A DNA stretch of 64,000 nucleotides from a bacterium (GTDB lineage: Bacteria > Patescibacteriota > Gracilibacteria > Peribacterales > Peribacteraceae): positions 34,156-98,155 of the forward strand of contig JAQCIJ010000001.1 of assembly GCA_027592135.1 (NCBI GenBank). Direction: 5' to 3'. The notes under the pieces are model-generated. The model was given only the letters and a program-made list of their open reading frames with translations, made no database searches and was not told where the DNA came from. Both the position numbers and the translations under genes were made by a program. This document shows positions 3,391 through 29,385 of this stretch, in pieces (the stretch's first letter is position 1; each line of letters begins with the position of its first letter).

Positions 3391-4718
3391 TTAGTAATCC
3401 ACCTAATGGGTGTTCCTTCGAAGTCGAAGGTTTTGCGTAGGCTATTCTCTAAATAGCGAAGCTGGCTTACCTGTACTTGTTTCGGGTCTTTTACAAATAC
3501 CACAAATGTTGGCGGTGTTTCTTCTGCCTGCAGTATCATCTTCGACCGTGCAAGCATTCCCATTGGTTTGCCGTATACTGTTTTTTTGTACCAATCCAGA
3601 AGCTCTTTTGTCGGGAGTCTTCGTATGCGGTTTCTCTGTGTCATCTCAATAAGATCAAAGATCTTCAGTAGCCCTTCTTTGGTTTGCGCAGATACAGGAA
3701 GTACTGGGGCGCACTTCGCAAATTGGAGTTGTTGTTGTATTTCTGCAAGACGCAGATGGCGTTCTTCTGTATCCACAAGATCGATCTTATTTACCAAAAT
3801 AATAAGCCCTTTTCCTTCTTCGACTGCCATACCTGCGACGCGTTTATCTTGGCGGCTGAGTGTCTGGGTAGCATCTAAGATCAGTACTGCGACGTCACAG
3901 TACTCCAGTTCTTTTACGCTGCGAAAGTACGCGTAGACTTCGATGTCACTCTTCGTATCTTTTCTTCGTTTGATACCGGCTGTGTCCGTAAAGACATAGT
4001 CTTGTTCATGATAGCGAATAATAGTATCGATAGCGTCACGTGTTGTTCCTGGAATATCAGAAACAAGAAGAGGAGATTTCGCACGTTGTGTTTCACTCAT
4101 AAAGGCGTTAACCAATGAGCTTTTACCCACGTTTGGTTTTCCGATAATGGCAATACGAGGAAGAGCATTCTCTATTTTTGGTACCCGTTCAAAGTTTAAT
4201 TTGATCAATTCTTCTTCAATAGCTTCTTGGAGAGCATCTGTTCCATATCTGTGCGGAGCACTAATAGGAATAATACGATCAGTAATTCCTAATTGATAGT
4301 ATTCAGGCAAAATTGAATCAATTGTCCCAGGGTCATCACATTTCGTCAGTGCCATTACAATTGGCGCATGAGACTTCGTGCTCTTGCGGAGGATTTCGAC
4401 AATCTCAAAGTCGCTTCCGGTCAGCTCTTCTCTGCTATTTACCGTAAAGACAATGACATCTGCATGCTCTAGAGCAAGTTTGGATTGTTCATGGACATCA
4501 TCTTCCAGCTCTATGTCCTGCGTCCCTCCGCCCATTCCTCCAGTATCAATTAATAGATAATCGAGCTTTTCACCTTCTACTTGCCCCGCAACTTGATCTC
4601 TGGTGGTACCAGGAGTGTCTGCAACAATTGCCTTTCTGCGACCAATGATCTTATTGAAAAGTGTGGATTTGCCCGTATTTGGCCTTCCAATGATCGCTAC
4701 AGTGGGTATTTTCGCCAT
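3378..4718 (-). CDS. der: Ribosome-associated GTPase Der (EngA)
   Basis: Two tandem GTPase domains (GRPNTGKST and GKPNVGKSS P-loops; DTGG and DTAG) plus a KH-like C-terminus, 446 aa. Confidence 0.93.
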   Translation of the reverse strand: MAKIPTVAIIGRPNTGKSTLFNKIIGRRKAIVADTPGTTRDQVAGQVEGEKLDYLLIDTGGMGGGTQDIELEDDVHEQSKLALEHADVIVFTVNSREELTGSDFEIVEILRKSTKSHAPIVMALTKCDDPGTIDSILPEYYQLGITDRIIPISAPHRYGTDALQEAIEEELIKLNFERVPKIENALPRIAIIGKPNVGKSSLVNAFMSETQRAKSPLLVSDIPGTTRDAIDTIIRYHEQDYVFTDTAGIKRRKDTKSDIEVYAYFRSVKELEYCDVAVLILDATQTLSRQDKRVAGMAVEEGKGLIILVNKIDLVDTEERHLRLAEIQQQLQFAKCAPVLPVSAQTKEGLLKIFDLIEMTQRNRIRRLPTKELLDWYKKTVYGKPMGMLARSKMILQAEETPPTFVVFVKDPKQVQVSQLRYLENSLRKTFDFEGTPIRWITKKNA

Positions 4719-4805
4719 AAGTAGACCCGCAGACTATCAGATTTTTTATAGATTTCCCATAAAGAACTGTGATAAACCAGCGTGAAACTGTAGGATATTG
4801 CGCGT

Positions 4806-7292
4806 ATGTACGATTCATCATCAACAGAAAAGAAATGGCAGGCCAAATGGGAAGAGGCAAAATCTTATGTTATAGACCTCAAAAAGGCCAAAGATCCCTA
4901 TTTCTCTCATGTAATGTTCCCCTACCCTAGTGGAGATAAGCTCCATGTAGGGCATTGGTATAACTATGGGCCAGCAGATAGCTTTTCTCGCTATCAGCGA
5001 ATGCTCGGCAAAGATGTATTCTGCCCTTTTGGATTTGATGCCTTTGGTCTTCCTGCAGAAAACTATGCTATTAAGACAGGAGTGCATCCAGATGACTCCA
5101 TTACCACAAATGTCGAGACGATGATCATCCAGCTCAAGCGTATTGGGTGTATGTACGACTGGGACAAGATGGTAAATACCTCAAAGCCTGAGTACTACCG
5201 GTGGACGCAGTGGCTTTTTTTACAGATGTATAAGAACAAGCTTGCGTACCGTAAAGATGCGAATGTGAACTGGTGCGAGAGCTGTAAAACCGTTCTCGCC
5301 AATGAGCAGGTGTGGGAGGGAAAATGTGAACGGTGCGATACCGATATTGTCCTTAAGCCCATGACACAGTGGTATTGGAAGGTAAAAGATTATGCGCAGA
5401 AACTGCTCGACGGTCTGGAAAATCTGGATTGGCCGGAGAAAACAAAGACCATGCAGCGAAACTGGATCGGCCGAAGCGAGGGAATGAATTTTACCTTCAA
5501 AGTGAAAGATTCCGAACTTGAGTTTGAGGTGTACGACTCAGTGCCGCAAACGTATCGAGCTCAGACATTCGCAGTCATAGCACCGGAGCATCCCATGCTC
5601 CTAAGTCTCATAAAAGGGCAAAAGAACGAGAAGGAGGTTCTGGATTTCATAGAGCGAATGAAGGTGAAGAAAGCGACGCAGAAATATAATTTTGACGAAG
5701 ATCTGGAAGGAGTCTTCACCGGTCGTTTCGTGGAGTTTGTTACCGGAGATCTTCCTTTGTGGGTGGCATCGTTCGCTGTTATGGATTACGGGTCGGGTAT
5801 CGTAAACTGTTCCGCTCATGACGAACGCGACTTTGCCTTTGCAAAGAAGTACGACATTCCGTTGCACGTCGTTATGGTTCCCGAGGACGAAGCGGAGGCT
5901 GAGAAAGTGCGAAACTTGGAGTACTGCTTCTTTAAAGATCCGCAGGGAGTCATGCTGGAACCCGAAGAATTCAAAGGCAGGCGTTGGGGTGAAGTGCGAC
6001 AGGATATCATCAAGTATTTGGAAAAAGAGGGTATCGGTTATCCCACGGTTCAGTATAAACTTCGCGACTGGAGTATTTCTCGTCAGCGGTACTGGGGAGC
6101 ACCCATCCCTATTGTGTATGATCCAGAAGGAAACCCTCATCCTATTCCTGAGGAGCATCTTCCATGGGAACTTCCTCGTGATGTGGACTTTAAGCCAACA
6201 GGAGTTGCTCCTCTTGCAGCCTCGAAAGAATTACTCGAGCGCACAGAGGCGATATTTGGAAAAGGTTGGACGCCAGAAGTCGATACCATGGATACTTTTG
6301 TTTGTAGTTCGTTCTATTCATTTATGTATCTTTCTACAGAAGGATACGGTACAAAATTTACCAACGCATCTCCGACAGCATCCGATCGAGAAGCGCAATT
6401 CATCGACCCGACTATAGAAAAGAACTGGATGCCAGTAGATATGTACATCGGAGGGCCAGAGCATGCTTGCATGCATTTGATTTATTCTCGTTTTGTAACA
6501 ATGGCTTTAAAAGACTTTGGGTATGTTTCCCATGAAGAACCCTATAAGCGACTTATACACCAAGGCCTGATAACGAATGGTGGAGCAAAGATGAGTAAGA
6601 GCAAAGGCAATGTCGTAAGCCCAGATGCATTTGTCGAACAATACGGAAGTGATGTCTTTAGAATGTACCTCATGTTCATGGGACCATTCGAAGGAGGAGG
6701 GGACTGGAGTGATACGGGTATCAAGGGTATCGATAGGTTTGTGCAGAAAGTATGGAAGCTATTTGGGGAAACCGAGGAATCCGAAGAAACCAAGGAATCC
6801 AAAGAGGTGGAAGTAAAACTCCATCAGACCATTAAGAAAGTGACAGAGGATATTGAGAGATTACACTTTAATACGTGTATATCAGCACTAATGGAACTGA
6901 TGAACACCGTCGAAAAGCATAAAACTTTTAATAAGAACTTAGCTCTAACTGTAGCAAAATTACTTTCTCCACTTGCACCACATTTAGCAGAGGAGCTTTG
7001 GGAGAAGCTTGGAGGTCCCGCCTACGCCAAGGCTACAGGGAGCAAGGAAGGATTTGTTATCGACCAACCATGGCCAACATACGATGAAAAAATGTGTGTG
7101 TCAGCAACAGTAGAAGTTGCTGTACAGATCAATGGAAAGCTCCGCGGAACCATCACTATAGATGCAGCTGCTTCCGAAGCGGATGTAATTACTCTTGCTA
7201 AAGAAGTACCAAATGTTTTGAAGAATCTGGAAGGCAAAGAGATCAAGAAAGAGATCTATGTTCCGGGGAAGCTCGTCAGTTTGGTTATATAA
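4806..7292 (+). CDS. leuS: Leucine--tRNA ligase
   Basis: 828 aa with the class I motifs HVGHWYNY (HIGH-like) and KMSKSKGN, plus a CP1 editing-domain insertion. Confidence 0.95.
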   Translation: MYDSSSTEKKWQAKWEEAKSYVIDLKKAKDPYFSHVMFPYPSGDKLHVGHWYNYGPADSFSRYQRMLGKDVFCPFGFDAFGLPAENYAIKTGVHPDDSITTNVETMIIQLKRIGCMYDWDKMVNTSKPEYYRWTQWLFLQMYKNKLAYRKDANVNWCESCKTVLANEQVWEGKCERCDTDIVLKPMTQWYWKVKDYAQKLLDGLENLDWPEKTKTMQRNWIGRSEGMNFTFKVKDSELEFEVYDSVPQTYRAQTFAVIAPEHPMLLSLIKGQKNEKEVLDFIERMKVKKATQKYNFDEDLEGVFTGRFVEFVTGDLPLWVASFAVMDYGSGIVNCSAHDERDFAFAKKYDIPLHVVMVPEDEAEAEKVRNLEYCFFKDPQGVMLEPEEFKGRRWGEVRQDIIKYLEKEGIGYPTVQYKLRDWSISRQRYWGAPIPIVYDPEGNPHPIPEEHLPWELPRDVDFKPTGVAPLAASKELLERTEAIFGKGWTPEVDTMDTFVCSSFYSFMYLSTEGYGTKFTNASPTASDREAQFIDPTIEKNWMPVDMYIGGPEHACMHLIYSRFVTMALKDFGYVSHEEPYKRLIHQGLITNGGAKMSKSKGNVVSPDAFVEQYGSDVFRMYLMFMGPFEGGGDWSDTGIKGIDRFVQKVWKLFGETEESEETKESKEVEVKLHQTIKKVTEDIERLHFNTCISALMELMNTVEKHKTFNKNLALTVAKLLSPLAPHLAEELWEKLGGPAYAKATGSKEGFVIDQPWPTYDEKMCVSATVEVAVQINGKLRGTITIDAAASEADVITLAKEVPNVLKNLEGKEIKKEIYVPGKLVSLVI
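6768..6803 (+). repeat. In-frame 2 x 18-nt tandem duplication inside leuS (ETEESE/ETKESK)
   Basis: GAAACCGAGGAATCCGAA is followed by GAAACCAAGGAATCCAAA. Confidence 0.8.
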
Positions 7293-22864: not shown

Positions 22865-24658
22865 ATGAAGACTCTCAAACCTCAAATTCAGGCTCTAGTC
22901 AACAGATTGGGATCACTTTTGAAACGTCGTTGGAAACGCGTTCTTATCTTCGTTGTTATTGCGCTTCCTGTTATAGCGCTCACAAACTTCCTGAGATCCG
23001 AGCCAGAACCTGAATATCTAACTGCTCAAGTGGAGCGAGGAGAACTGGTTCAGGCTGTAGAGGTTGTGGCTACCGTAATTTCAGAGAAAGATCTTGAGCT
23101 CAAATTCCCTGTATCAGGGATCGTCGATGAATTACTTGTTTCTGATGGTGATATTGTCATAGCAGGGCAGGAACTTGCGAGACTCCGATCAGGAAGTTTA
23201 AATGCAGCAGTATCTGCAGCTCAAGCCCGTCTTACTACTACCTATGCAGAACTTCGTGCCTTAGAAGAAGGGGCTCGACCAGAGGATATTGCCATTGCAG
23301 AGGCAGAGCTTCAGAACAAGAAGGCATCACTAGATTTTGCTCAATCAAAGTTTGATGCAGCAGTAGATTCATTAGAGCAGGCAAATAGTAAATTAGAATC
23401 ACTACAATCAGAAGCAAAGACTGCTTCTATTGGTGAGGTAGCGAGTGCGAGCAGCACACTTTTGAAAGAAATTTCCAAGACAGAGACAGCACTTGGTGTT
23501 ATCGAAGATGTATTCGAAGATCTTACACTACAGAATATCTTGTCACAGGCTCAGCCTGCAGAATATTCAGAGATTGAAACCCAGAGAAAAGCTACATATG
23601 CAGCAATTGCCGATTTCATCTTTCAGCAAAGAGGTTCTTCAAAAGATTTTAGAGAGGCATCAGCAGCACTTCTTGCGTCTCGAACAATAATTAATGATGC
23701 TGCGCGTATTATTCAGAGAGCGTATGACTTTATCTCTCGACAAGAACCCTTGGGACTCTTTGATTTCACAAAAAAGGAAACCCTCAAAAACTCTCTTGCA
23801 ACACAGAAGAACAATGCAGAAACTGCCTATAACAATATCGATACTGCCTACAAAGCTTTACAGGATAAAGTGGCAAACTTTGATACGAGAATTGCGACAG
23901 AGGAATCTAACCTCGTAACTTCTAAAGGAGCACGAGACCAAGCGCTTGCCGACATCAACACATTCCGTACCGCAGTTGCCGTTTCAGAGGCACAGCTATC
24001 TCTGAAGAAAGCAGGAACACGAAAGGCAGATGTCGATGCATCTCGTGGGCGTGTACAATCAGCGCGAGCTGACCTCGAAAGAGCTCAGGCAGATTATGAC
24101 GATACGATCCTTAGGGCACCAATCGATGGAACAATTACCAAAGTAAACCTAAAGAAAGGGGAGTTCACCCCTGGCCAGTTTAGCGAGACGGTTGCGGCTA
24201 TTACTATTCTTGGAGTATCGCCGTACCGTATCGAAGTCTTTACCTCAGAGATTGATATTCCAAAGATCGACTACAAGCAGCCTGGAGAACTTCTTTTGGA
24301 TGCATATCCCAATAGAGAATTTCCAGTGGAAGTAACCGAGATCGACCCAGCAGCGACGATTGTCGATGGGGTTCCGAAGTATCGCATCAAGTTGGATTTT
24401 CCAGAGAGTTTTGAAAAACTCTTAAAAATTGGCATGACAGGGGATCTTGATATTATCACTGACATCAAAGAAGACGCGCTCTACATTCCTGGACGTGCAG
24501 TTATCAAAAACGAAGAAGGGGAAGACATCGTCCGTGTGCTTCTGGAAGACGGAGAGGTAGAAGAGAGACCAGTAGTTGTCGGGATGGAAACCATTACCAA
24601 TGTAGAAATTGTTAAAGGTCTCGAAGAAGGAGAAGCAGTAATCGTTCTTATTAAGTAG
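22865..24658 (+). CDS. HlyD/MacA-family periplasmic adaptor with a very long coiled-coil hairpin
   Basis: N-terminal TM, lipoyl-like halves (GIVDELLVSDGDIVIAGQELARL ... ILRAPIDGTITKVNLKKGE), a long alpha-helical Ala/Glu/Gln-rich middle, and a C-terminal beta-barrel/MP domain. Confidence 0.85.
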   Translation: MKTLKPQIQALVNRLGSLLKRRWKRVLIFVVIALPVIALTNFLRSEPEPEYLTAQVERGELVQAVEVVATVISEKDLELKFPVSGIVDELLVSDGDIVIAGQELARLRSGSLNAAVSAAQARLTTTYAELRALEEGARPEDIAIAEAELQNKKASLDFAQSKFDAAVDSLEQANSKLESLQSEAKTASIGEVASASSTLLKEISKTETALGVIEDVFEDLTLQNILSQAQPAEYSEIETQRKATYAAIADFIFQQRGSSKDFREASAALLASRTIINDAARIIQRAYDFISRQEPLGLFDFTKKETLKNSLATQKNNAETAYNNIDTAYKALQDKVANFDTRIATEESNLVTSKGARDQALADINTFRTAVAVSEAQLSLKKAGTRKADVDASRGRVQSARADLERAQADYDDTILRAPIDGTITKVNLKKGEFTPGQFSETVAAITILGVSPYRIEVFTSEIDIPKIDYKQPGELLLDAYPNREFPVEVTEIDPAATIVDGVPKYRIKLDFPESFEKLLKIGMTGDLDIITDIKEDALYIPGRAVIKNEEGEDIVRVLLEDGEVEERPVVVGMETITNVEIVKGLEEGEAVIVLIK

Positions 24659-24659
24659 C

Positions 24660-25415
24660 ATGCCCAAGAAAACAAAAAAAACAGCCGCGCCATTAATAGA
24701 GACGCAAAATCTCCACAAGTCGTACTTTAGTGAGGAGTTGGAGACGGCAGTATTACATGGAATTAATCTGACGATTCATGAAGAAGAGTTTATTTCTATT
24801 ATGGGACCTTCGGGTTCTGGAAAATCTACACTGATGCATATTTTAGGATTTCTGGATCAGCCAACACAAGGAAAGTATCTCTTTCGTGGAGAGCCAACAA
24901 GAACAATGACCGACGATGAACTTGCTGCTATTCGTGCAACTCGTGTGAGTTTTGTATTCCAAGCTTTTAACTTGCTACCGAGAACATCGGTACTCGACAA
25001 CGTAATGTTACCATTGCTCTATCACCCTACGATTCCTGCATCCGAAAGAATCGATCGATCCATGGAAGCTATCAGAGCTGTAGATCTTACAGATCGTGCA
25101 CTGTATTACACCAATCAACTTTCTGGAGGGCAGCAGCAACGCGTGGCAATTGCCAGAGCTCTGGTAACAGATCCTGATGTTATCTTTGCCGATGAACCAA
25201 CAGGAAACCTGGATAGTACGTCTGGAAACCAAGTGATGGAAGTGTTACAAAATCTGCATGAACAAGGAGGAAGAACCATTATCCTTGTAACACATGAACA
25301 AAGTACTGCAGCGCACGCGAAGCGTATTATTCATCTCAAAGATGGTCTGGTCGATTCCGATGTACAATCCTTTAAGCGTATTTCTGCAAAAACAAACAAT
25401 ACCCTCGAAAAGTAA
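24660..25415 (+). CDS. ABC transporter ATP-binding protein (MacB/LolD type)
   Basis: [10 protein letters not shown] Walker [16 protein letters not shown] signature, [11 protein letters not shown] Walker B. Confidence 0.93.
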
Positions 25416-26644
25416 TGCTTATTAAAGATACGATGTTTGCGGCGCAGCGCAGTCTGACCAGTAATAAAAGCAGGTCACTGCTTACGATGCTTGGTGTCAT
25501 TATTGGTGTAGGGTCTGTTGTGCTCATGACATCTGTCGGAGCAAGTATGGAAAAACTGATTCTCGGACAGATTAGTTCTATTGGTGCAAAAAGCATGGTG
25601 ATTTTCCCTGGCCAACAACAAGGTGCAGAAGGAGCTATTCAGGCAGGGTATGATAGTCTGACATTCGAAGATATTGATGCACTCAATAAACTCACAACCA
25701 TCACAAGTGTGGCTCCTGCTATGTTTATGGCTGTAGATCAAGCTACGTTCGGAAGAGAGAAGACAGAGCCTCGTGTTATCGGAACGATTCCGAATTACTT
25801 TAATAATCGTGAGGTAAACGTAGAGCGCGGAAGATTACTCGATGAAAGTGATGTACGTGCTGCACGTAATGTTGTCGTTCTGGGGTCAGAAATTGTCGAT
25901 GACTTATTCGGTCCTCAAAATCCCATTGGGAAACGCGTTAAACTCGGATCGAGGTCGTATGAGGTTATCGGTACGTTGGAATCGATTGGTACGCAGTTTT
26001 TCCAGAATGCCGATGAGTTTGTGTTTATTCCACTGACAACAGCTCGTGCGCAGAACGCACAGAAGTATGTGAATATTGTCAGTATGCAGTCGGTAGGGGA
26101 TTTTGATCTTGCTCAATATGATGTCGAGACACTGCTGAGGCGTCGGCACGGGATAGTGAACCCCGATGGAGATCCCGATAAAGATGACTTTATTGTTAGT
26201 ACATCAGCCCAAGCGAACGACATTCTTGGGTCAGTATCGCTGGGACTCACACTATTTATTACTACCGTTGCGGGTATCTCTCTTATTGTTGGCGGCATCG
26301 GTATTATGAATATCATGCTCGTATCTGTCACAGAGCGCACGCGTGAAATTGGTTTGCGTAAGGCAATTGGTGCCAAGCGTAGAGATATCCTCTTGCAGTT
26401 TCTCGTAGAAGCGATAGCCCTTACGATGCTGGCAGGAATCATTGGAGTTGTATGTGGAGTGGGGCTTGCAGCACTGATTGCAGCTATTACGGATACGTTC
26501 TTACCAACCTACGACTTTGTGATGTCCTATCCTTCTATAGGAGTGGCCCTTGCTATGGCATATGTTGTAGGGCTAGGATTCGGAATCTATCCTGCTAAAA
26601 AAGCTGCCGATCTTTCCCCTATGAATGCCCTTCGCTACGAGTAA
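25415..26644 (+). CDS. ABC transporter permease, FtsX/MacB family (copy 1)
   Basis: MacB-type periplasmic domain between TM1 and TM2, an FtsX C-terminal module (GGIGIMNIMLVSVTERTREIGLRKAIGA) and the tail PAKKAADLSPMNALRYE. There is a 1-nt TAATG overlap with the ATPase gene. Confidence 0.9.
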   Translation: MLIKDTMFAAQRSLTSNKSRSLLTMLGVIIGVGSVVLMTSVGASMEKLILGQISSIGAKSMVIFPGQQQGAEGAIQAGYDSLTFEDIDALNKLTTITSVAPAMFMAVDQATFGREKTEPRVIGTIPNYFNNREVNVERGRLLDESDVRAARNVVVLGSEIVDDLFGPQNPIGKRVKLGSRSYEVIGTLESIGTQFFQNADEFVFIPLTTARAQNAQKYVNIVSMQSVGDFDLAQYDVETLLRRRHGIVNPDGDPDKDDFIVSTSAQANDILGSVSLGLTLFITTVAGISLIVGGIGIMNIMLVSVTERTREIGLRKAIGAKRRDILLQFLVEAIALTMLAGIIGVVCGVGLAALIAAITDTFLPTYDFVMSYPSIGVALAMAYVVGLGFGIYPAKKAADLSPMNALRYE

Positions 26645-27865
26645 ATGCTACTTACTGATACATTCAAATCGGCATACACAGCAATCACCGCTCATCGGAT
26701 GCGGTCGATCCTTACGATGCTTGGTATTATTATCGGAGTGGGTTCTGTAGTGCTGATGGTATCTGTAGGACGCAGTTTCGAGCGATATGTGCTGGATCAA
26801 GTAGAGTCGTTCTCGAGTCACTTAATTGAGGTCTATCCAACTGGTTTCGAGAAATTTGGACGCACACTTGATTCATTAAGCTTTGCAGATTACGAGGCTG
26901 TCTTGAAGCTCACGACAGTAAAAGATGTAGCACCAGTTATTTTTATTCGTGAAAAAGTTTCGGTAGGTACAGAAGAGATCTCTCCAAATATTTTTGGGAC
27001 GACACACCATTTTTTCAGTAACTATAGTCTCAAGCTACGTGACGGTAGAATTTTAAACGATTCAGACTTTAAAGGTGCACGCTCTGTTGCAGTGCTAGGA
27101 TTCCAAGCGGCAGAAGATTTGTTTGGACCAAACAATCCTTTGGAAAATCGCATTCGTATCGGTCAGAGGTTTTATACGGTCGTTGGTGTAATGGACACCG
27201 TCGGTTCTGCACTACTGCAGGATCTTGACTCTTTTGTGTATGTACCGTTTACCACAGCGCGTGCACAGACAGGGCAGAAGTTTATGAGTTATATGACGAT
27301 GAAGGCGACTATCGAAGATGATGCATTAGCAATGGCAGATGTCACATCTCTACTTCGTCAGAGACACGGTATAGAAAACCCTGATAATAATTACGACAAA
27401 GACGACTTTCGCGCACGGAGTGCATCTCAAGCGACAGAGATAGTAGGAACAGTAGGTCTTGGCCTTACAGCATTTATCGGTCTGATCGCAGGTATTTCTC
27501 TGATAGTAGGAGGAATCGGAATTATGAACATCATGCTTGTGTCTGTTACAGAGCGCACAAGAGAGATTGGTCTTCGTAAAGCACTTGGCGCTACTCGCCA
27601 AGATATTATGCGTCAGTTCCTTATAGAAGCAGTAGCGCTTACGATGCTTGGGGGAACGATCGGTATTATCGGAGGAGCAGTCATTGGAGCAGTGCTTACT
27701 GCAGTAGCGAGTAAGTTCGTTGGTCACGTACCATTTTTACTATCTATCCCTGCATTACTGTCAGCCGCCGGTATGGCTTTGGCTGTAGGACTGCTGTTTG
27801 GGATAGTCCCTGCAAGAAAGGCTGCAGATTTAAGCCCAATGGAAGCTATAAGATGGGAGGGGTAA
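26645..27865 (+). CDS. ABC transporter permease, FtsX/MacB family (copy 2)
   Basis: Paralogue of the preceding gene with the same MNIMLVSVTERTREIGLRKA motif. It starts immediately after the previous stop. Confidence 0.9.
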   Translation: MLLTDTFKSAYTAITAHRMRSILTMLGIIIGVGSVVLMVSVGRSFERYVLDQVESFSSHLIEVYPTGFEKFGRTLDSLSFADYEAVLKLTTVKDVAPVIFIREKVSVGTEEISPNIFGTTHHFFSNYSLKLRDGRILNDSDFKGARSVAVLGFQAAEDLFGPNNPLENRIRIGQRFYTVVGVMDTVGSALLQDLDSFVYVPFTTARAQTGQKFMSYMTMKATIEDDALAMADVTSLLRQRHGIENPDNNYDKDDFRARSASQATEIVGTVGLGLTAFIGLIAGISLIVGGIGIMNIMLVSVTERTREIGLRKALGATRQDIMRQFLIEAVALTMLGGTIGIIGGAVIGAVLTAVASKFVGHVPFLLSIPALLSAAGMALAVGLLFGIVPARKAADLSPMEAIRWEG

Positions 27866-28095
27866 CTACCGTACATCGTCGCATAGAGATCTTCTTCTAG
27901 AGAATGAAATCGATGGTGCATAGAATATTCGAGAGTACCAATAGCATGTGCATTTGAAAGTATTCCTTTGCTATTACCATCTATACGATCAGACAAGCGT
28001 TTCTCCGTACCTCGCATACTTTTTTGTACTCCTTGAATATGGAAAACAATGTCTTTAAGGGTAACGCCGCCGTTGTTTGCATCGTGTTCTTTCAT
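27724..28095 (-). CDS. Questionable hypothetical ORF whose last ~47 codons run antisense to the permease 3' end
   Basis: 123-aa ORF. The first ~77 aa look protein-like (MKEHDANNGGVTLKDIVFHIQGVQKSM...). The remainder overlaps the convergent CDS by 142 nt. Confidence 0.3.
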   Translation of the reverse strand: MKEHDANNGGVTLKDIVFHIQGVQKSMRGTEKRLSDRIDGNSKGILSNAHAIGTLEYSMHHRFHSLEEDLYATMYGSYPSHLIASIGLKSAAFLAGTIPNSSPTAKAIPAADSNAGIDSKNGT

Positions 28096-28217
28096 GGGTT
28101 TTGTATGATAGATGTTGAAAGGGTGAGGAACAAGTTGAGAAATGGAACGCTCACATTTTCCTTGAGATAATAGGTAGATACGCTAAAATCCTTCACGTGG
28201 GTCGGTACCGAAGTGGT

Positions 28218-28260
28218 TCAGCCGTCGCTCCTCGCTTCGCACGGAGCTATGGCCGACAAG
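28218..28260 (+). repeat. 43-nt GC-rich hairpin insertion, copy 1, in the D loop of the tRNA-like gene
   Basis: Sequence TCAGCCGTCGCTCCTCGCTTCGCACGGAGCTATGGCCGACAAG. GCCGTCGCTC pairs with GAGCTATGGC. Confidence 0.85.
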
Positions 28261-28283
28261 CAAACGGGTCTGGCTGTAAACCA

Positions 28284-28326
28284 TCAGCCGTCGCTCTTTA
28301 CTTCGTTACGAGCTATGGCCGACAGG
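28284..28326 (+). repeat. 43-nt GC-rich hairpin insertion, copy 2, in the 3' strand of the anticodon stem
   Basis: Sequence TCAGCCGTCGCTCTTTACTTCGTTACGAGCTATGGCCGACAGG. It is 35/43 identical to copy 1 and has the same length. Confidence 0.85.
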
Positions 28327-28349
28327 GATGGCTCCGCCTTCGGGGGTTC

Positions 28350-28445
28350 GCCTGCCCGCCGTAGCCATTGTGGAGCAATGCGTAGGTGGGAGTCCTTTCC
28401 AGACATGTTCGACCCCACGTCGCCTGCGGGCTATGAGGGGCAGGC
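28350..28445 (+). other. GC-rich structured segment closed by a long-range 8+7-bp helix
   Basis: GCCTGCCCGCCGTAGCC (28350-28366) pairs with GGCTATGAGGGGCAGGC (28429-28445). TCGCCTGC occurs as a direct repeat at 28348 and 28420. Confidence 0.5.
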
Positions 28446-28513
28446 AAAGACGCTCGAAGAGAGGAAATCAGGCGGGAGGTGATGGAGTTAAAGTATAGGT
28501 TCAAGATGTCTGA

Positions 28514-29101
28514 TTATTCTTCAGCATCAACCAGCTGACTCATGTATTCGACCTGTTCTTCAGAGCTCATATTAGCAGTTACATTATTCTTTGCTTCTTC
28601 GATTTGTTCCTCAAGGTGTTTTCTTGCACCTTCTTGGTCACCTATTGATTGTAAAGTAAAAGTAACTTTCCAGTCTTTGATGCGACTTAAGTAATGCTTT
28701 GTATAGCGATTTTTCGGTTCTACAGCATTGACAGCATCAATTGCTCGACCGTTTAAGTCTCCTACTTGTACACCAACGTCTAGCTTCTGACTAACTGTGA
28801 GGTCAGGTTGAATGATAAAGTACATACTGTTAGCAAGCATTGAAGCTCTGTTCAGTGTCTCTGCTGTATCCTGACTAGGAGTTTCAAGGCAGCCTTGCAG
28901 AGCTGTTCTATATTCTTCGATGGCACTCCGAACCTCTGCTAACTCTTCTTCGGTAATTTCAAATGATTGGGAAGCACAGCCTGCTAAAATTGGCAGACTA
29001 GCTGTTGCTGCAAGAAAGTGGCGCCTACTTATTATTACAGATGATGAGTCTGATGAGGATTCACGTGCTCTTTTAGTCACATATTGTTGCGTTAAGGACA
29101 A
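28514..29101 (-). CDS. Hypothetical lipoprotein with a twin-arginine-like signal peptide
   Basis: SRRHFLAATASLPILAGCAS combines an S-R-R-x-F-L Tat-like motif with an LAGC lipobox. The rest is helical with no recognised domain. Confidence 0.6.
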   Translation of the reverse strand: MSLTQQYVTKRARESSSDSSSVIISRRHFLAATASLPILAGCASQSFEITEEELAEVRSAIEEYRTALQGCLETPSQDTAETLNRASMLANSMYFIIQPDLTVSQKLDVGVQVGDLNGRAIDAVNAVEPKNRYTKHYLSRIKDWKVTFTLQSIGDQEGARKHLEEQIEEAKNNVTANMSSEEQVEYMSQLVDAEE

Positions 29102-29300: not shown

Positions 29301-29385
29301 GGGTCGGTACCGAAGTGGTCAAACGGGTCTGGCTGTAAACCAGATGGCTCCGCCTTCGCTGGTTCGAGTCCAGCCCGGCCCACCA
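29301..29385 (+). tRNA. tRNA-Tyr (anticodon GTA), class II with a long variable arm, CCA encoded
   Basis: Manual cloverleaf: acceptor GGGTCGG/CCGGCCC, D stem CCG/CGG, anticodon stem TCTGG/CCAGA with loop CTGTAAA, 13-nt variable arm, T arm GCTGG-TTCGAGT-CCAGC, discriminator A, CCA. Confidence 0.93.

What the first reader, a model, noticed from the sequence alone, without database searches (positions are those of the whole stretch)
28218..28326. Two related 43-nt GC-rich hairpin elements inserted without target duplication
The two insertions have identical length (43 nt) and identical ends: TCAGCCGTCGCTC at the 5' end and GAGCTATGGCCGACA(A/G)G at the 3' end. Overall they are 35/43 identical. 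Each folds into a stem of about 10 bp (GCCGTCGCTC with GAGCTATGGC). Seven of the eight differences fall in the apical part around a conserved CTTCG loop. They include one compensatory change of the loop-closing pair (G:C in copy 1, A:T in copy 2). No target-site duplication is visible at either insertion point, which fits an intron-like or structure-targeted element better than a cut-and-paste MITE. I did not notice the element elsewhere in the 64 kb.
Basis: seen in the sequence. Interest (0 to 1): 0.6.

Follow-up and report, generated by a model that had tools for sequence, protein, structure and literature searches.

The report
Mobile palindromic hairpins riddling a tRNA-Tyr copy

Summary
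Window 28218-28260 and 28284-28326 are 43-nt GC-rich hairpins, 35/43 identical. They are inserted without target duplication into a second copy of the tRNA-Tyr(GTA) gene (28199-28416). The intact gene is at 29301-29385.

A third, 40-nt relative lies inverted in the T-loop (28351-28390). Deleting all three in silico restores a callable tRNA-Tyr.

The element is not lineage-specific. Its exact 20-nt core (GCCGTCGCTC...GAGCTATGGC) occurs in 72 loci from at least 8 phyla. The outer and apical stems covary.

Copies directly abut the CCA end of tRNA and tmRNA genes. They also sit in P12 and P18 of RNase P RNA, in both orientations, and nest inside each other.

The only recurrent neighbouring gene encodes an ~80-aa stand-alone GIY-YIG nuclease of the UPF0213/SLX1 type. 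From the protein side, 46/65 such genes have a family hairpin within 160 nt upstream. In addition, 35/57 have a co-directional t(m)RNA upstream.

Metatranscriptome contigs retain the hairpins inside RNase P RNA, so they are not spliced there.

Best reading: these are DNA-level, non-autonomous palindromic elements, probably copied in trans after cleavage by the nuclease. That last mechanistic step is inferred, not shown. I found no published description. The 315-nt composite locus is conserved in one other metagenome-assembled genome (MAG), and I cannot explain why.

The parts
28162..28189 (+). Promoter-like site TTGAGA-16-TAAAAT, 10 nt upstream of the disrupted tRNA-Tyr copy
   Evidence: Consensus scan, 10/12 matches. 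This is a consensus match only. It is not conserved by the same criteria in L064.
28199..28217 (+). tRNA-Tyr paralog, segment 1 (acceptor 5' strand, D-stem 5' strand, D-loop up to GGU)
   Evidence: 19/19 identical to the intact tRNA-Tyr at 29301.
28218..28260 (+). Hairpin element 1 ('A' orientation): TCA-GCCGTCGCTC-apical stem-loop-GAGCTATGGC-CGA-CAAG, inserted in the D-loop
   Evidence: The exact core is shared with 72 loci. It is 93% identical over 43 nt to a copy in a PVC-group MAG (L035).
28261..28283 (+). tRNA-Tyr paralog, segment 2 (D-arm 3' side, anticodon arm through ...GUAAACCA)
   Evidence: 23/23 identical to the intact gene.
28284..28326 (+). Hairpin element 2 ('A' orientation), inserted inside the 3' strand of the anticodon stem, directly after ...ACCA
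   Evidence: The orthologous copy in L064 differs by a compensatory A-U to G-C change in the apical stem.
28327..28350 (+). tRNA-Tyr paralog, segment 3 (end of anticodon stem, variable arm, T-stem 5' strand GGGGG, T-loop TTCG)
   Evidence: The first 16 nt are identical to the intact gene. The T-stem differs from it and equals that of L064.
28351..28390 (-). Hairpin element 3, same family in inverted orientation (reads on + as CCTG-CCCGCC-GTA-GCCATTG-loop-CAATGC-GTA-GGTGGG), inserted in the T-loop between TTCG and AGTCC. Junction ambiguous by 1 nt.
   Evidence: Matches the reverse-complement ('B') form of the family, tetranucleotide CYTG + outer stem + 3x3 internal loop. Its removal together with the other two restores a callable tRNA. 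Conserved in L064.
28391..28416 (+). tRNA-Tyr paralog, segment 4: T-loop AGT, T-stem 3' strand CCTTT (three G.U pairs), a 10-nt extra stretch, acceptor 3' strand (T/C)CGACCC
   Evidence: ARAGORN calls tRNA-Tyr(GTA) after in-silico removal of the three inserts. The call is cleaner when the 10 nt are also removed. It finds nothing with the inserts present.
28417..28509 (+). 3' extension conserved with L064 (about 86-88% identity). It contains the stem GCCTGC...GCAGGC, which can alternatively pair with 28350-28366. It also contains a GGAGG motif and a short ORF start, ATG at 28482 (MELKYRFKM...).
   Evidence: Function unknown. The coding signal is weak: GGAGG lies only 2 nt from the ATG, and the ORF has 18 codons here and 9 in L064.
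29301..29385 (+). Intact tRNA-Tyr(GTA), class II, CCA encoded; the reference 'empty' copy
   Evidence: ARAGORN and Rfam tRNA, 59.4 bits.

Best explanation
The 43-nt hairpins and the inverted 40-nt copy are non-autonomous members of a widespread family of miniature palindromic DNA elements.

A unit consists of four parts:
- a short variable outer stem;
- a strongly conserved GC-rich stem interrupted by a 3x3 mismatch. This reads GCC-(G/U)UC-GC...GC-UA(U/C)-GGC on one strand and GCC-RWA-GC...GC-GAM-GGC on the other;
- a variable, covarying apical stem-loop;
- a CA(A/G)G tail.

The family's home is the 3' flank of tRNA and tmRNA genes. There one module starts at or within the CCA, a second inverted-type module follows, and an ~80-aa stand-alone GIY-YIG nuclease gene (UPF0213/SLX1-like) lies just downstream.

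Solo modules are copied at the DNA level, in either orientation. They land in loops and ends of structured-RNA genes and in the apical loops of other copies, without target duplication. They stay in the transcript where the host RNA tolerates them.

In this window three solo modules landed in a redundant tandem copy of tRNA-Tyr, in the D-loop, the anticodon stem and the T-loop. That copy is no longer a usable tRNA.

Shown:
- family membership;
- cross-phylum spread;
- hairpin covariation;
- occurrence in both orientations;
- nesting;
- retention in RNase P RNA;
- the statistical link to the GIY-YIG gene and to t(m)RNA 3' ends.

Inferred:
- that the GIY-YIG protein is the mobilising enzyme. The proposed route is structure-specific cleavage at extruded hairpins or t(m)RNA gene ends, followed by repair that copies a module from another locus, i.e. 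homing-like copy-and-paste rather than transposase strand transfer;
- that it acts in trans from elsewhere in this genome. No such gene lies in the 64 kb.
For: Local evidence:
- The two copies and the paralogy with the intact tRNA-Tyr are confirmed.
- Removing the three inserts restores tRNA-Tyr(GTA) in ARAGORN. With the inserts present it finds none.

Family evidence:
- The exact 20-nt core was found in 72 genome loci. They come from Acidobacteriota, Planctomycetota, Verrucomicrobiota, Lentisphaerota, Kiritimatiellota, Bacteroidota, Patescibacteria and Actinomycetota.
- On 65 anchored copies, 108 cells show double compensatory changes against 54 +/- 7 in shuffles (0/500 shuffles as high). The covariation score is 0.204 against 0.045-0.078 for slid controls.

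Contexts:
- 8 copies start 1-5 nt after a t(m)RNA 3' end, and 25 lie within 180 nt of one.
- 11 copies are inside RNase P RNA: sense orientation in P12 in the acidobacterial copies, antisense orientation in the P18 region. The three sense copies in Verrucomicrobia (L031, L055, L059) lie further 3'.
- Nested copies occur in both orientations.
- Several near-identical copies sit at different tRNA genes of one MAG, e.g. L026/L041 and L002/L019.

Neighbouring gene:
- All-vs-all comparison of flanking ORFs found one recurrent family that is not explained by local synteny. That family is GIY-YIG PF01541, present in 8 loci.
- The profile's closest solved structures are UPF0213 BH0048 (1e-12) and SLX1 (1e-7 to 1e-5).
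- The catalytic-type residues Y5, Y17, R27, H31 and E63 are invariant.

Reverse test, starting from 80 metagenomic GIY-YIG loci:
- 46/65 have a family hairpin within 160 nt upstream, against 6/52 control windows.
- 35/57 have a co-directional t(m)RNA ending within 600 nt upstream.
- In 26/37, the 10-mer starting at the CA of the CCA has a perfect inverted repeat 28-88 nt downstream.

RNA evidence:
- Metatranscriptome contigs span the P12 and P18 hairpins of the L011 RNase P RNA with 0-2 differences.
- Related RNase P RNAs carry 4-7-nt loops at the same place, i.e. empty sites.
Against: - No GIY-YIG gene lies in the 64-kb window, and the rest of this genome is unseen. Trans-mobilisation is therefore an assumption.
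- GIY-YIG enzymes are hydrolytic nucleases with no known strand-transfer activity. No experiment links this subfamily to these hairpins.
- The hairpins could instead be RNA-level regulatory or processing modules of the nuclease mRNA that were secondarily copied.
- Orientation is not random with respect to host transcripts. The 'A' form sits right after the CCA and in P12, and the 'B' form sits before the ORF and in P18. This hints at RNA-level selection.
- The whole 315-nt composite is about as conserved between this window and L064 as the functional tRNA-Tyr itself, while the flanks share nothing.
- Its variable arm matches each genome's own tRNA-Tyr. Both points are awkward for 'dead pseudogene plus junk'.
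- Only 3 copies occur in 64 kb, and no common target motif is seen at the three junctions.
Confidence: 0.6

Rival explanations
1. The composite locus (28195-28509) is a functional structured RNA. It would be a tRNA-Tyr-derived scaffold, such as a decoy or mimic of tRNA-Tyr, or the leader of a small ORF. The three hairpins would be selected structural or protein-binding modules rather than parasitic insertions.
For: - The unit is 78% identical (with gaps; about 86-88% in aligned blocks) to a locus in a Patescibacteria-labelled MAG (L064). That locus also lies about 0.9 kb upstream of tRNA-Tyr. Nothing else in L064's 8 kb matches the window.
- The variable arm of the disrupted copy matches each genome's own tRNA-Tyr, GGCTCCGCC here and GTCTCCGAC there.
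- There is a compensatory A-U to G-C change in the apical stem of element 2 between the two genomes.
- The window has a promoter-like site 10 nt upstream.
- The region is GC-rich (about 60%) in a roughly 42% GC neighbourhood.
- The sense-strand order A, A, B followed by an ATG resembles the canonical order before GIY-YIG genes.
Against: - Only two genomes are available, so covariation cannot be tested.
- A metagenome scan for further interrupted copies found none.
- Signs of decay are present: a T-stem with three G.U pairs, a 10-nt extra stretch and an altered 3' end.
- Insert 1 is a different, shorter 34-nt variant in L064, and L064 carries an extra 29-nt insert.
- The whole-region fold gives only z -1.9.
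- There is no Rfam match.
- The short ORF differs in length, 18 versus 9 codons, and its GGAGG lies 2 nt from the ATG.
- Gene conversion between tandem tRNA copies could explain the matching variable arm.
Confidence: 0.2
2. The hairpins are primarily RNA elements of the GIY-YIG cassette, for example a 5' stabiliser, a processing signal or an autoregulatory switch on a transcript read through from the t(m)RNA promoter. The scattered solo copies would be relics of decayed cassettes or products of recombination, not an independently mobile element.
For: - There is a fixed order on the sense strand: t(m)RNA-CCA, module A, spacer, perfect complement of A's 5' arm, module B, ATG.
- A's 5' arm has two alternative partners in 26/37 loci, which resembles a switch.
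- The modules are transcribed and stable within RNase P RNA.
Against: - Cassette decay cannot explain copies in the D-loop, anticodon stem and T-loop of a tRNA gene, in P12/P18 of RNase P RNA, or nested in either orientation inside other copies.
- The purine-rich and pyrimidine-rich forms are reverse complements of each other. That is expected for DNA insertions in two orientations.
- The same near-identical module occurs in unrelated phyla.
Confidence: 0.12
3. The inserts are true introns of a functional tRNA-Tyr gene, removed at the RNA level by an archaeal-type splicing endonuclease acting on bulge-helix-bulge motifs or by an unknown bacterial activity.
For: - After removal of the three inserts a tRNA-Tyr(GTA) is recognised.
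- The positions (D-loop, anticodon stem, T-loop) recall the non-canonical introns of some archaeal tRNAs (established knowledge).
- The tRNA-homologous segments are perfectly conserved.
Against: - The context is bacterial: a class II tRNA-Tyr and a sigma-70 gene.
- There is no BHB. The insert ends form a long continuous helix with a tail on one side only.
- The third insert is the reverse complement of the other two.
- The same elements remain unspliced in RNase P RNA transcripts and occur outside genes.
- Even the 'spliced' product has a weak T-stem and 10 extra nt before the acceptor strand.
- An intact tRNA-Tyr gene lies 1 kb away.
Confidence: 0.04
4. An ordinary lineage-specific REP/MITE family mobilised by a conventional transposase (RAYT, or IS200/IS605 TnpA).
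For: The elements are short imperfect palindromes with an adjacent conserved tetranucleotide and no TSD. That matches REP and IS200/IS605-derived elements (established knowledge).
Against: - Only 3 copies occur in 64 kb.
- The identical 20-nt core occurs across at least 8 phyla.
- No HUH/Y1 transposase family recurs next to copies; only GIY-YIG does.
- There is no GTAG head.
Confidence: 0.04

Closest known systems
REP / REPIN elements with their RAYT (TnpA-REP, HUH Y1) transposases
   Same: Imperfect GC-rich palindromes of 20-60 nt with an adjacent conserved tetranucleotide. No target duplication. Non-autonomous copies are thought to be mobilised in trans by a single-copy nuclease gene that is itself flanked by the repeats.
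   Different: - The tetranucleotide here is CA(A/G)G at the 3' side, not GTAG at the 5' side.
- The associated gene encodes a GIY-YIG (UPF0213/SLX1-like) nuclease, not an HUH enzyme.
- Copy number is low.
- The core is conserved across phyla rather than species-specific.
- The preferred sites are t(m)RNA 3' ends and loops of structured-RNA genes.
Rickettsia palindromic elements (RPE), yeast mitochondrial GC clusters and fungal double-hairpin elements (from my own knowledge, not re-read here)
   Same: Small palindromic selfish DNA that inserts into genes, including RNA genes, at positions the product tolerates. It remains in the transcript and can nest or form arrays.
   Different: - Those families are confined to one lineage or organelle.
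- They have no consistent partner gene of this type.
- RPEs are 100-150 nt.
- GC clusters often show short target duplications.
Cyanobacterial small dispersed repeats (Elhai et al. 2008) and STRR repeats inside P12 of RNase P RNA (Vioque 1997) (from my own knowledge; papers not held in the library searched)
   Same: Very small repeats are found nested in one another and inside stable-RNA genes. P12 of RNase P RNA is a tolerated landing site.
   Different: The sequences are different and shorter (7-27 nt). They are restricted to cyanobacteria and have no known nuclease partner.
Free-standing GIY-YIG homing endonuclease genes, e.g. phage T4 segB in the tRNA gene cluster (from my own knowledge)
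   Same: A GIY-YIG nuclease gene lodged beside tRNA genes and thought to spread by cleavage of the conserved neighbouring gene followed by recombinational repair.
   Different: - Seg and I-TevI enzymes carry DNA-binding domains and are over 200 aa. The proteins here are a bare ~80-aa catalytic domain nearest to UPF0213/SLX1.
- Those genes have no conserved hairpin modules.
- They are phage-borne. Two pattern scans of viral contigs found nothing.
Archaeal bulge-helix-bulge tRNA introns at non-canonical positions
   Same: Multiple short inserts in the D-, anticodon- and T-arms of one tRNA gene, with no target duplication.
   Different: The host is bacterial. There is no BHB. One insert is inverted. 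The same element is retained in RNase P RNA.

Membership tests
Archaeal-type (BHB) tRNA intron | Bulge-helix-bulge: two 3-nt bulges carrying the splice sites, separated by a 4-bp helix | tested here: not met
   The folds of both inserts with flanks show the insert ends paired into a continuous helix of more than 10 bp with one mismatch. There is a 4-nt unpaired tail on the 3' side only, and no exon-exon helix (and inspection).
Archaeal-type (BHB) tRNA intron | Host with splicing endonuclease (archaea or eukaryotes) | tested here: not met
   tRNA-Tyr has the long variable arm typical of bacteria. The window encodes RpoD sigma-70, DnaG, FtsK and a MacB-type transporter. The endonuclease gene itself was not searched for in the unseen rest of the genome.
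Archaeal-type (BHB) tRNA intron | Insert removed from the mature RNA | tested here: inconclusive
   No RNA runs hold this locus. For the same element in RNase P RNA (L011), RNA contigs retain it.
Group I / group II self-splicing intron or other Rfam family | Match to a curated covariance model | tested here: not met
   Only tRNAs were found in the window at gathering threshold. Only chance-level matches (E 1-8) were found in 28100-28600. In 18 family loci only tRNA, tmRNA and RNase P matched.
REP/REPIN-RAYT | Short imperfect palindrome, no target duplication | tested here: met
REP/REPIN-RAYT | Conserved GTAG head at the 5' end | tested here: not met
   The conserved flank is a 3' CA(A/G)G tail (CYTG in the reverse orientation).
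REP/REPIN-RAYT | Associated HUH Y1 transposase (RAYT) gene flanked by the repeats | tested here: not met
   All-vs-all clustering of ORFs within 1.5 kb of 72 loci gave GIY-YIG as the only recurrent non-syntenic family.
REP/REPIN-RAYT | Tens to hundreds of extragenic copies per genome, species-specific sequence | tested here: not met
   There are 3 copies in 64 kb, all in one gene. The identical core occurs in at least 8 phyla. Whole-genome copy number could not be measured.
MITE (transposase-derived, TIR + TSD) | Target-site duplication flanking each copy | tested here: not met
   The junctions are defined against the intact paralog: none at inserts 1 and 2, and at most 1 ambiguous nt at insert 3.
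   Both 43-mers carry the exact core, an outer stem TCA/CGA and a CAAG or CAGG tail.
   All three copies lie inside a tRNA-Tyr gene copy. Insert 2 directly follows an internal ...ACCA.
   phmmer with three family proteins found none in the six-frame ORFs of the window. The copies here are therefore orphans. The rest of the genome is not available.

The most novel reading that the evidence does not exclude
These hairpins may mark an undescribed class of bacterial mobile element. It would be a promoter-less, ~80-aa SLX1/UPF0213-type GIY-YIG nuclease cassette that docks exactly at the CCA end of tRNA and tmRNA genes. It would use paired 'A' and 'B' palindromic modules with a conserved 3x3 mismatch as its recognition structure. 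It would seed solo modules into loops of stable-RNA genes (tRNA, RNase P RNA) across at least eight phyla. A bolder variant: the conserved, module-studded tRNA-Tyr copy is itself functional, for example as a landing pad or decoy that protects the working tRNA-Tyr gene from the nuclease.
Probability: 0.35. Interest if true: 0.8.

Novelty: new variant of a known kind. Interest (0 to 1): 0.64.

Why it matters
If the link to the nuclease is causal, this would be a palindromic repeat system driven by a GIY-YIG structure-specific nuclease rather than an HUH transposase. Its sequence core is conserved across phyla that share almost nothing else.

It would give a function to the large orphan UPF0213 / 'GIY-YIG nuclease family protein' group. 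At least 579 relatives were found in one metagenome scan.

It would explain unannotated GC-rich hairpins next to tRNA and tmRNA genes, and the odd expansions in P12 and P18 of RNase P RNA.

It would also warn annotators that tRNA-like genes can be hidden by such inserts: ARAGORN and Rfam both miss the copy here.

The exact abutment to the CCA raises a directly testable question. Is the target recognised as DNA, or through the RNA?

Tried and rejected
- **Known RNA family.** Rfam at gathering and E-value thresholds gave nothing.
- **RNA structural motifs.** I considered a tetraloop-receptor (UAUGG), kink-turn, 5S-like or L1-like motif from memory. I dropped these because the element occurs in both orientations and nests.
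- **CRISPR-like array or terminator.** The repeat and spacer sizes do not fit, and there is no T-run.
- **Integrase att duplication as the general cause.** A direct repeat of the tRNA 3' end follows the modules in only 5 of 47 loci. These are mostly short ORF-less versions (L029, L043, L045, L048).
- **More copies of the interrupted tRNA-Tyr.** A metagenome scan for tRNA-Tyr with any 25-55-nt D-loop insert found none. Viral contigs had none for two patterns. Only three DNA runs of one study hold the locus, and no RNA runs do.
- **Homologues of the flanking 195-aa ORF.** Only 2 were found, which is uninformative. It and the 123-aa ORF have no Pfam, NCBIfam or PADLOC hits.
- **Synteny with L064.** There is none beyond the composite and tRNA-Tyr.
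- **The short ORF after the composite.** 4 of 6 differences fall on third codon positions. By my own binomial estimate this is not significant once three frames are allowed for.
- **Literature.** Nine full-text searches were run, on the sequence strings and on GIY-YIG with tRNA, tmRNA, RNase P, REP, UPF0213 and YhbQ. None turned up a description. The library lacks most subscription journals.
- **Covariance model.** I did not build one. Anchored counting on the invariant core was used instead. The core itself cannot be assessed for conservation, because the search pattern fixed it.
Full report
**1. What is in the window**

The stretch 28190-28510 is a GC-rich island (57-63% GC in 100-nt windows) in DNA of about 37-48% GC. 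It lies between two minus-strand ORFs that have no family hits.

ARAGORN and Rfam find an intact class II tRNA-Tyr(GTA) at 29301-29385. Aligning that gene to 28190-28500 shows a second copy starting at 28199. Its segments 28199-28217, 28261-28283 and 28327-28342 are identical to the intact gene, but they are separated by two 43-nt inserts.

- They are 35/43 identical. Seven differences are apical and one is in the tail.
- They share identical ends that occur nowhere else in the window.
- Each folds into a 9-10-bp stem with one C.U mismatch and a small apical stem. The closing pair of that stem changes G-C to A-U.
- The junctions are unambiguous, and there is no target duplication.

**2. A third copy and a full-length tRNA**

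Comparison with the family described below shows that 28351-28390 is the same kind of element in reverse orientation. It sits between TTCG and AGTCC of the T-loop.

With all three inserts removed in silico, ARAGORN calls a tRNA-Tyr(GTA). Removing a further 10 nt before the acceptor 3' strand gives an 82-nt call. With the inserts present nothing is found, even in intron mode.

The host is therefore a complete tandem duplicate of tRNA-Tyr carrying inserts in the D-loop, in the 3' strand of the anticodon stem (directly after ...ACCA) and in the T-loop.

**3. The element is a cross-phylum family**

A scan of one genome per species for GCCGTCGCTC-N13-23-GAGCTATGGC returned 72 loci. About ten look like chance matches inside coding sequence. 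The rest are hairpins whose outer flanks pair (tcc/gga, ccc/ggg, gctc/gagc, cca/tgg). Their apical parts are variable stem-loops, and a CA(A/G)G tail often follows.

On 65 copies anchored on the invariant core:
- 84.9% of cells pair, against 77.2% in shuffles.
- 108 cells carry double compensatory changes, against 54 +/- 7 in shuffles (0 of 500 shuffles as high).
- The covariation score is 0.204, against 0.045-0.078 when partners are slid.

Two caveats apply. The core was fixed by the search, and copies were pre-filtered for at least 2 of 3 outer pairs.

Relaxed matching shows a sister variant, GCCTTCGCTC...GAGCTACGGC. It also shows that the reverse complement ('B' form: GCC-RWA-GC...GC-GAM-GGC) is the second hairpin seen next to many copies.

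Window insert 1 is 93% identical over 43 nt to a copy in a PVC-group MAG.

**4. Where copies sit**

Of 82 instances:
- 25 lie within 180 nt downstream of a tRNA or tmRNA gene. Eight of these start 1-5 nt after the 3' end, all in sense orientation.
- 11 lie inside RNase P RNA genes.

Infernal alignments place a sense copy in P12 and a reverse-type copy in the P18 region of acidobacterial RNase P RNAs.

Copies are nested in the apical loops of other copies, in either orientation (L009, L010, L036, L050, L058, L065, L072). Single MAGs carry near-identical modules at different tRNA genes (L026/L041, L002/L019) or in tandem arrays (L013, L049, L104). Both orientations and nesting argue for insertion at the DNA level.

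**5. Not spliced**

Freshwater metatranscriptome contigs cover the L011 RNase P RNA, including the P12 hairpin (X4 record 8, 4941-5095, no differences; X6 record 20). They also cover the P18 hairpin (X7 record 25, 4673-4917).

Related RNase P RNAs in the same runs have 4-7 nt at the P12 position instead of the 38 nt. These amount to empty sites.

No RNA run holds the window locus itself.

**6. The partner gene**

Clustering all ORFs within 1.5 kb of the hairpins gave one recurrent family that is not explained by local synteny. It is an ~80-aa stand-alone GIY-YIG domain (PF01541, E 1e-9 to 1e-15) with a C-terminal FE(K/R)YLK(S/T)GSGRAF motif, present in 8 loci.

The residues Y5, Y17, R27, H31 and E63 are invariant. 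From my own knowledge, they correspond to the catalytic residues of I-TevI.

The nearest solved structures are UPF0213 proteins and SLX1, a structure-specific endonuclease. There are no NCBIfam hits, and the only PADLOC match is a weak one to a candidate family (PDC-S57, E = 0.0026).

For the reverse test I used a profile of these proteins against metagenome contigs. It matched at least 579 relatives, and the best 80 loci were kept. Results:
- 46 of 65 have a B-type hairpin within 160 nt upstream of the start codon, against 6 of 52 control windows.
- 35 of 57 have a co-directional tRNA or tmRNA ending within 600 nt upstream, in most cases 92-200 nt.

The canonical order is: t(m)RNA-CCA, module A with tail ...tggCA(A/G)GCC, spacer, a perfect complement of A's 5' arm, module B, 10-40 nt, ATG. 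In 26 of 37 loci the perfect inverted repeat begins at the CA of the CCA.

A duplicated tRNA 3' end follows the modules in only 5 of 47 loci.

**7. Explanation and its limits**

I conclude with high confidence that the two 43-mers are orphan modules of this family, inserted as DNA into a spare tRNA-Tyr gene.

The idea that the GIY-YIG protein mobilises them is inference from association and from the known biochemistry of the superfamily. The proposed route is structure-specific cleavage followed by repair that copies a module. No such gene lies in the window.

An RNA-level role for the A/B modules in expressing the cassette from the t(m)RNA promoter is also plausible. It may coexist with DNA mobility.

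**8. What remains unexplained**

The 315-nt composite (28195-28509) recurs in one Patescibacteria-labelled MAG (L064), again just upstream of tRNA-Tyr. It is the only thing, besides the tRNA, shared between the two sequences.

Points of agreement between the two loci:
- Inserts 2 and 3 and a 90-nt 3' extension are conserved.
- The apical stem of insert 2 shows a compensatory change.
- The variable arm of each disrupted copy matches its own genome's tRNA-Tyr.
- The T-stem is shared between the two disrupted copies rather than with the local tRNA.

Points of difference:
- Insert 1 is a shorter variant in L064.
- L064 has an extra 29-nt insert.

Gene conversion between tandem copies, horizontal transfer of the unit, or function of the composite could each account for part of this. 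Two sequences cannot decide. A promoter-like site precedes the copy in the window.

**9. Novelty**

Nine literature searches found no description of the hairpin, of its link to GIY-YIG genes or of the CCA-abutting architecture. The library searched is incomplete.

The closest known kinds are REP/REPIN-RAYT systems and other miniature palindromic parasites of RNA genes. The nuclease class, the target and the cross-phylum conservation differ from these.

Noticed in passing
window 28351-28390: A third family hairpin, inverted and 40 nt long, lies in the T-loop of the disrupted tRNA-Tyr copy.
   Followed up: yes
window 28417-28537: This is a conserved 3' extension of the composite. Its stem GCCTGC...GCAGGC can alternatively pair with 28350-28366. 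It also has a GGAGG motif 2 nt before an ATG (28482) that opens an 18-codon ORF, MELKYRFKMSDYSSASTS. L064 has MELKYRFRM followed by a stop. Most differences are synonymous, but the numbers are too small to call it coding.
   Followed up: partly
window 28392-28411: Ten extra nucleotides (AGACATGTTC, or equivalently CCAGACATGT) lie between the T-stem and the acceptor 3' strand of the disrupted copy. L064 has AGACCGATTC at the same place. Origin unknown.
   Followed up: partly
L001 (ENA contig of the same population), position equivalent to window 28298: A second assembly of the locus differs by one T-to-C change in the apical internal loop of hairpin 2.
   Followed up: no
L064 3672-3644 (minus strand): An extra 29-nt insert, CGTCGCACATGTGCGAC + AGTGGTAAACCA, lies before hairpin 2. 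It consists of a perfect 16-nt palindrome followed by a fusion of the D-loop and anticodon-stem flanks. It looks like a footprint of recombination between the two insert sites.
   Followed up: no
L049 2313-5100: A 2.3-kb insert sits between a tmRNA gene and a repeat of its last ~30 nt. Both the gene and the repeat are followed by the same pair of hairpin modules. The insert carries small ORFs, which I did not scan against family libraries. A GIY-YIG gene follows the second module pair.
   Followed up: partly
L013 1500-2150; L028 3280-3545; L104 upstream of 751: Tandem arrays of hairpin-containing modules lie between the tmRNA and the GIY-YIG gene in the Flavobacteriaceae loci L013 (five units of ~105 nt) and L028 (two of ~140 nt); L104 has repeated ~35-nt units upstream of its GIY-YIG gene, with no t(m)RNA found upstream.
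   Followed up: partly
L029, L043, L045, L048 (100-190 nt after tRNA genes): ORF-less A+B module pairs are bounded by a direct repeat of the last 11-18 nt of the tRNA. This looks like small integrated units or deletion derivatives. It is not seen for most cassettes.
   Followed up: partly
L005 5509-6020, L011 4672-5143, L031 5098-5535: These RNase P RNA genes are enlarged to 438-512 nt by family hairpins. In L005 and L011 the hairpins lie in P12 and the P18 region; in L031 the family hairpin lies further 3'. All three still score 187-268 bits against the bacterial type A model.
   Followed up: yes
window 27724-28095 and 28514-29101 (minus strand): The two ORFs flanking the composite have no Pfam, NCBIfam or PADLOC hits. 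The 195-aa one has only two relatives among 5.8 billion proteins. The 123-aa one overlaps the end of the MacB-type permease gene and may be shorter or not real.
   Followed up: partly
window 22865-27865: A MacAB-like efflux operon (HlyD-family adaptor, ABC ATPase, two MacB/FtsX permeases) ends 330 nt before the disrupted tRNA copy. This is ordinary chromosomal context.
   Followed up: no
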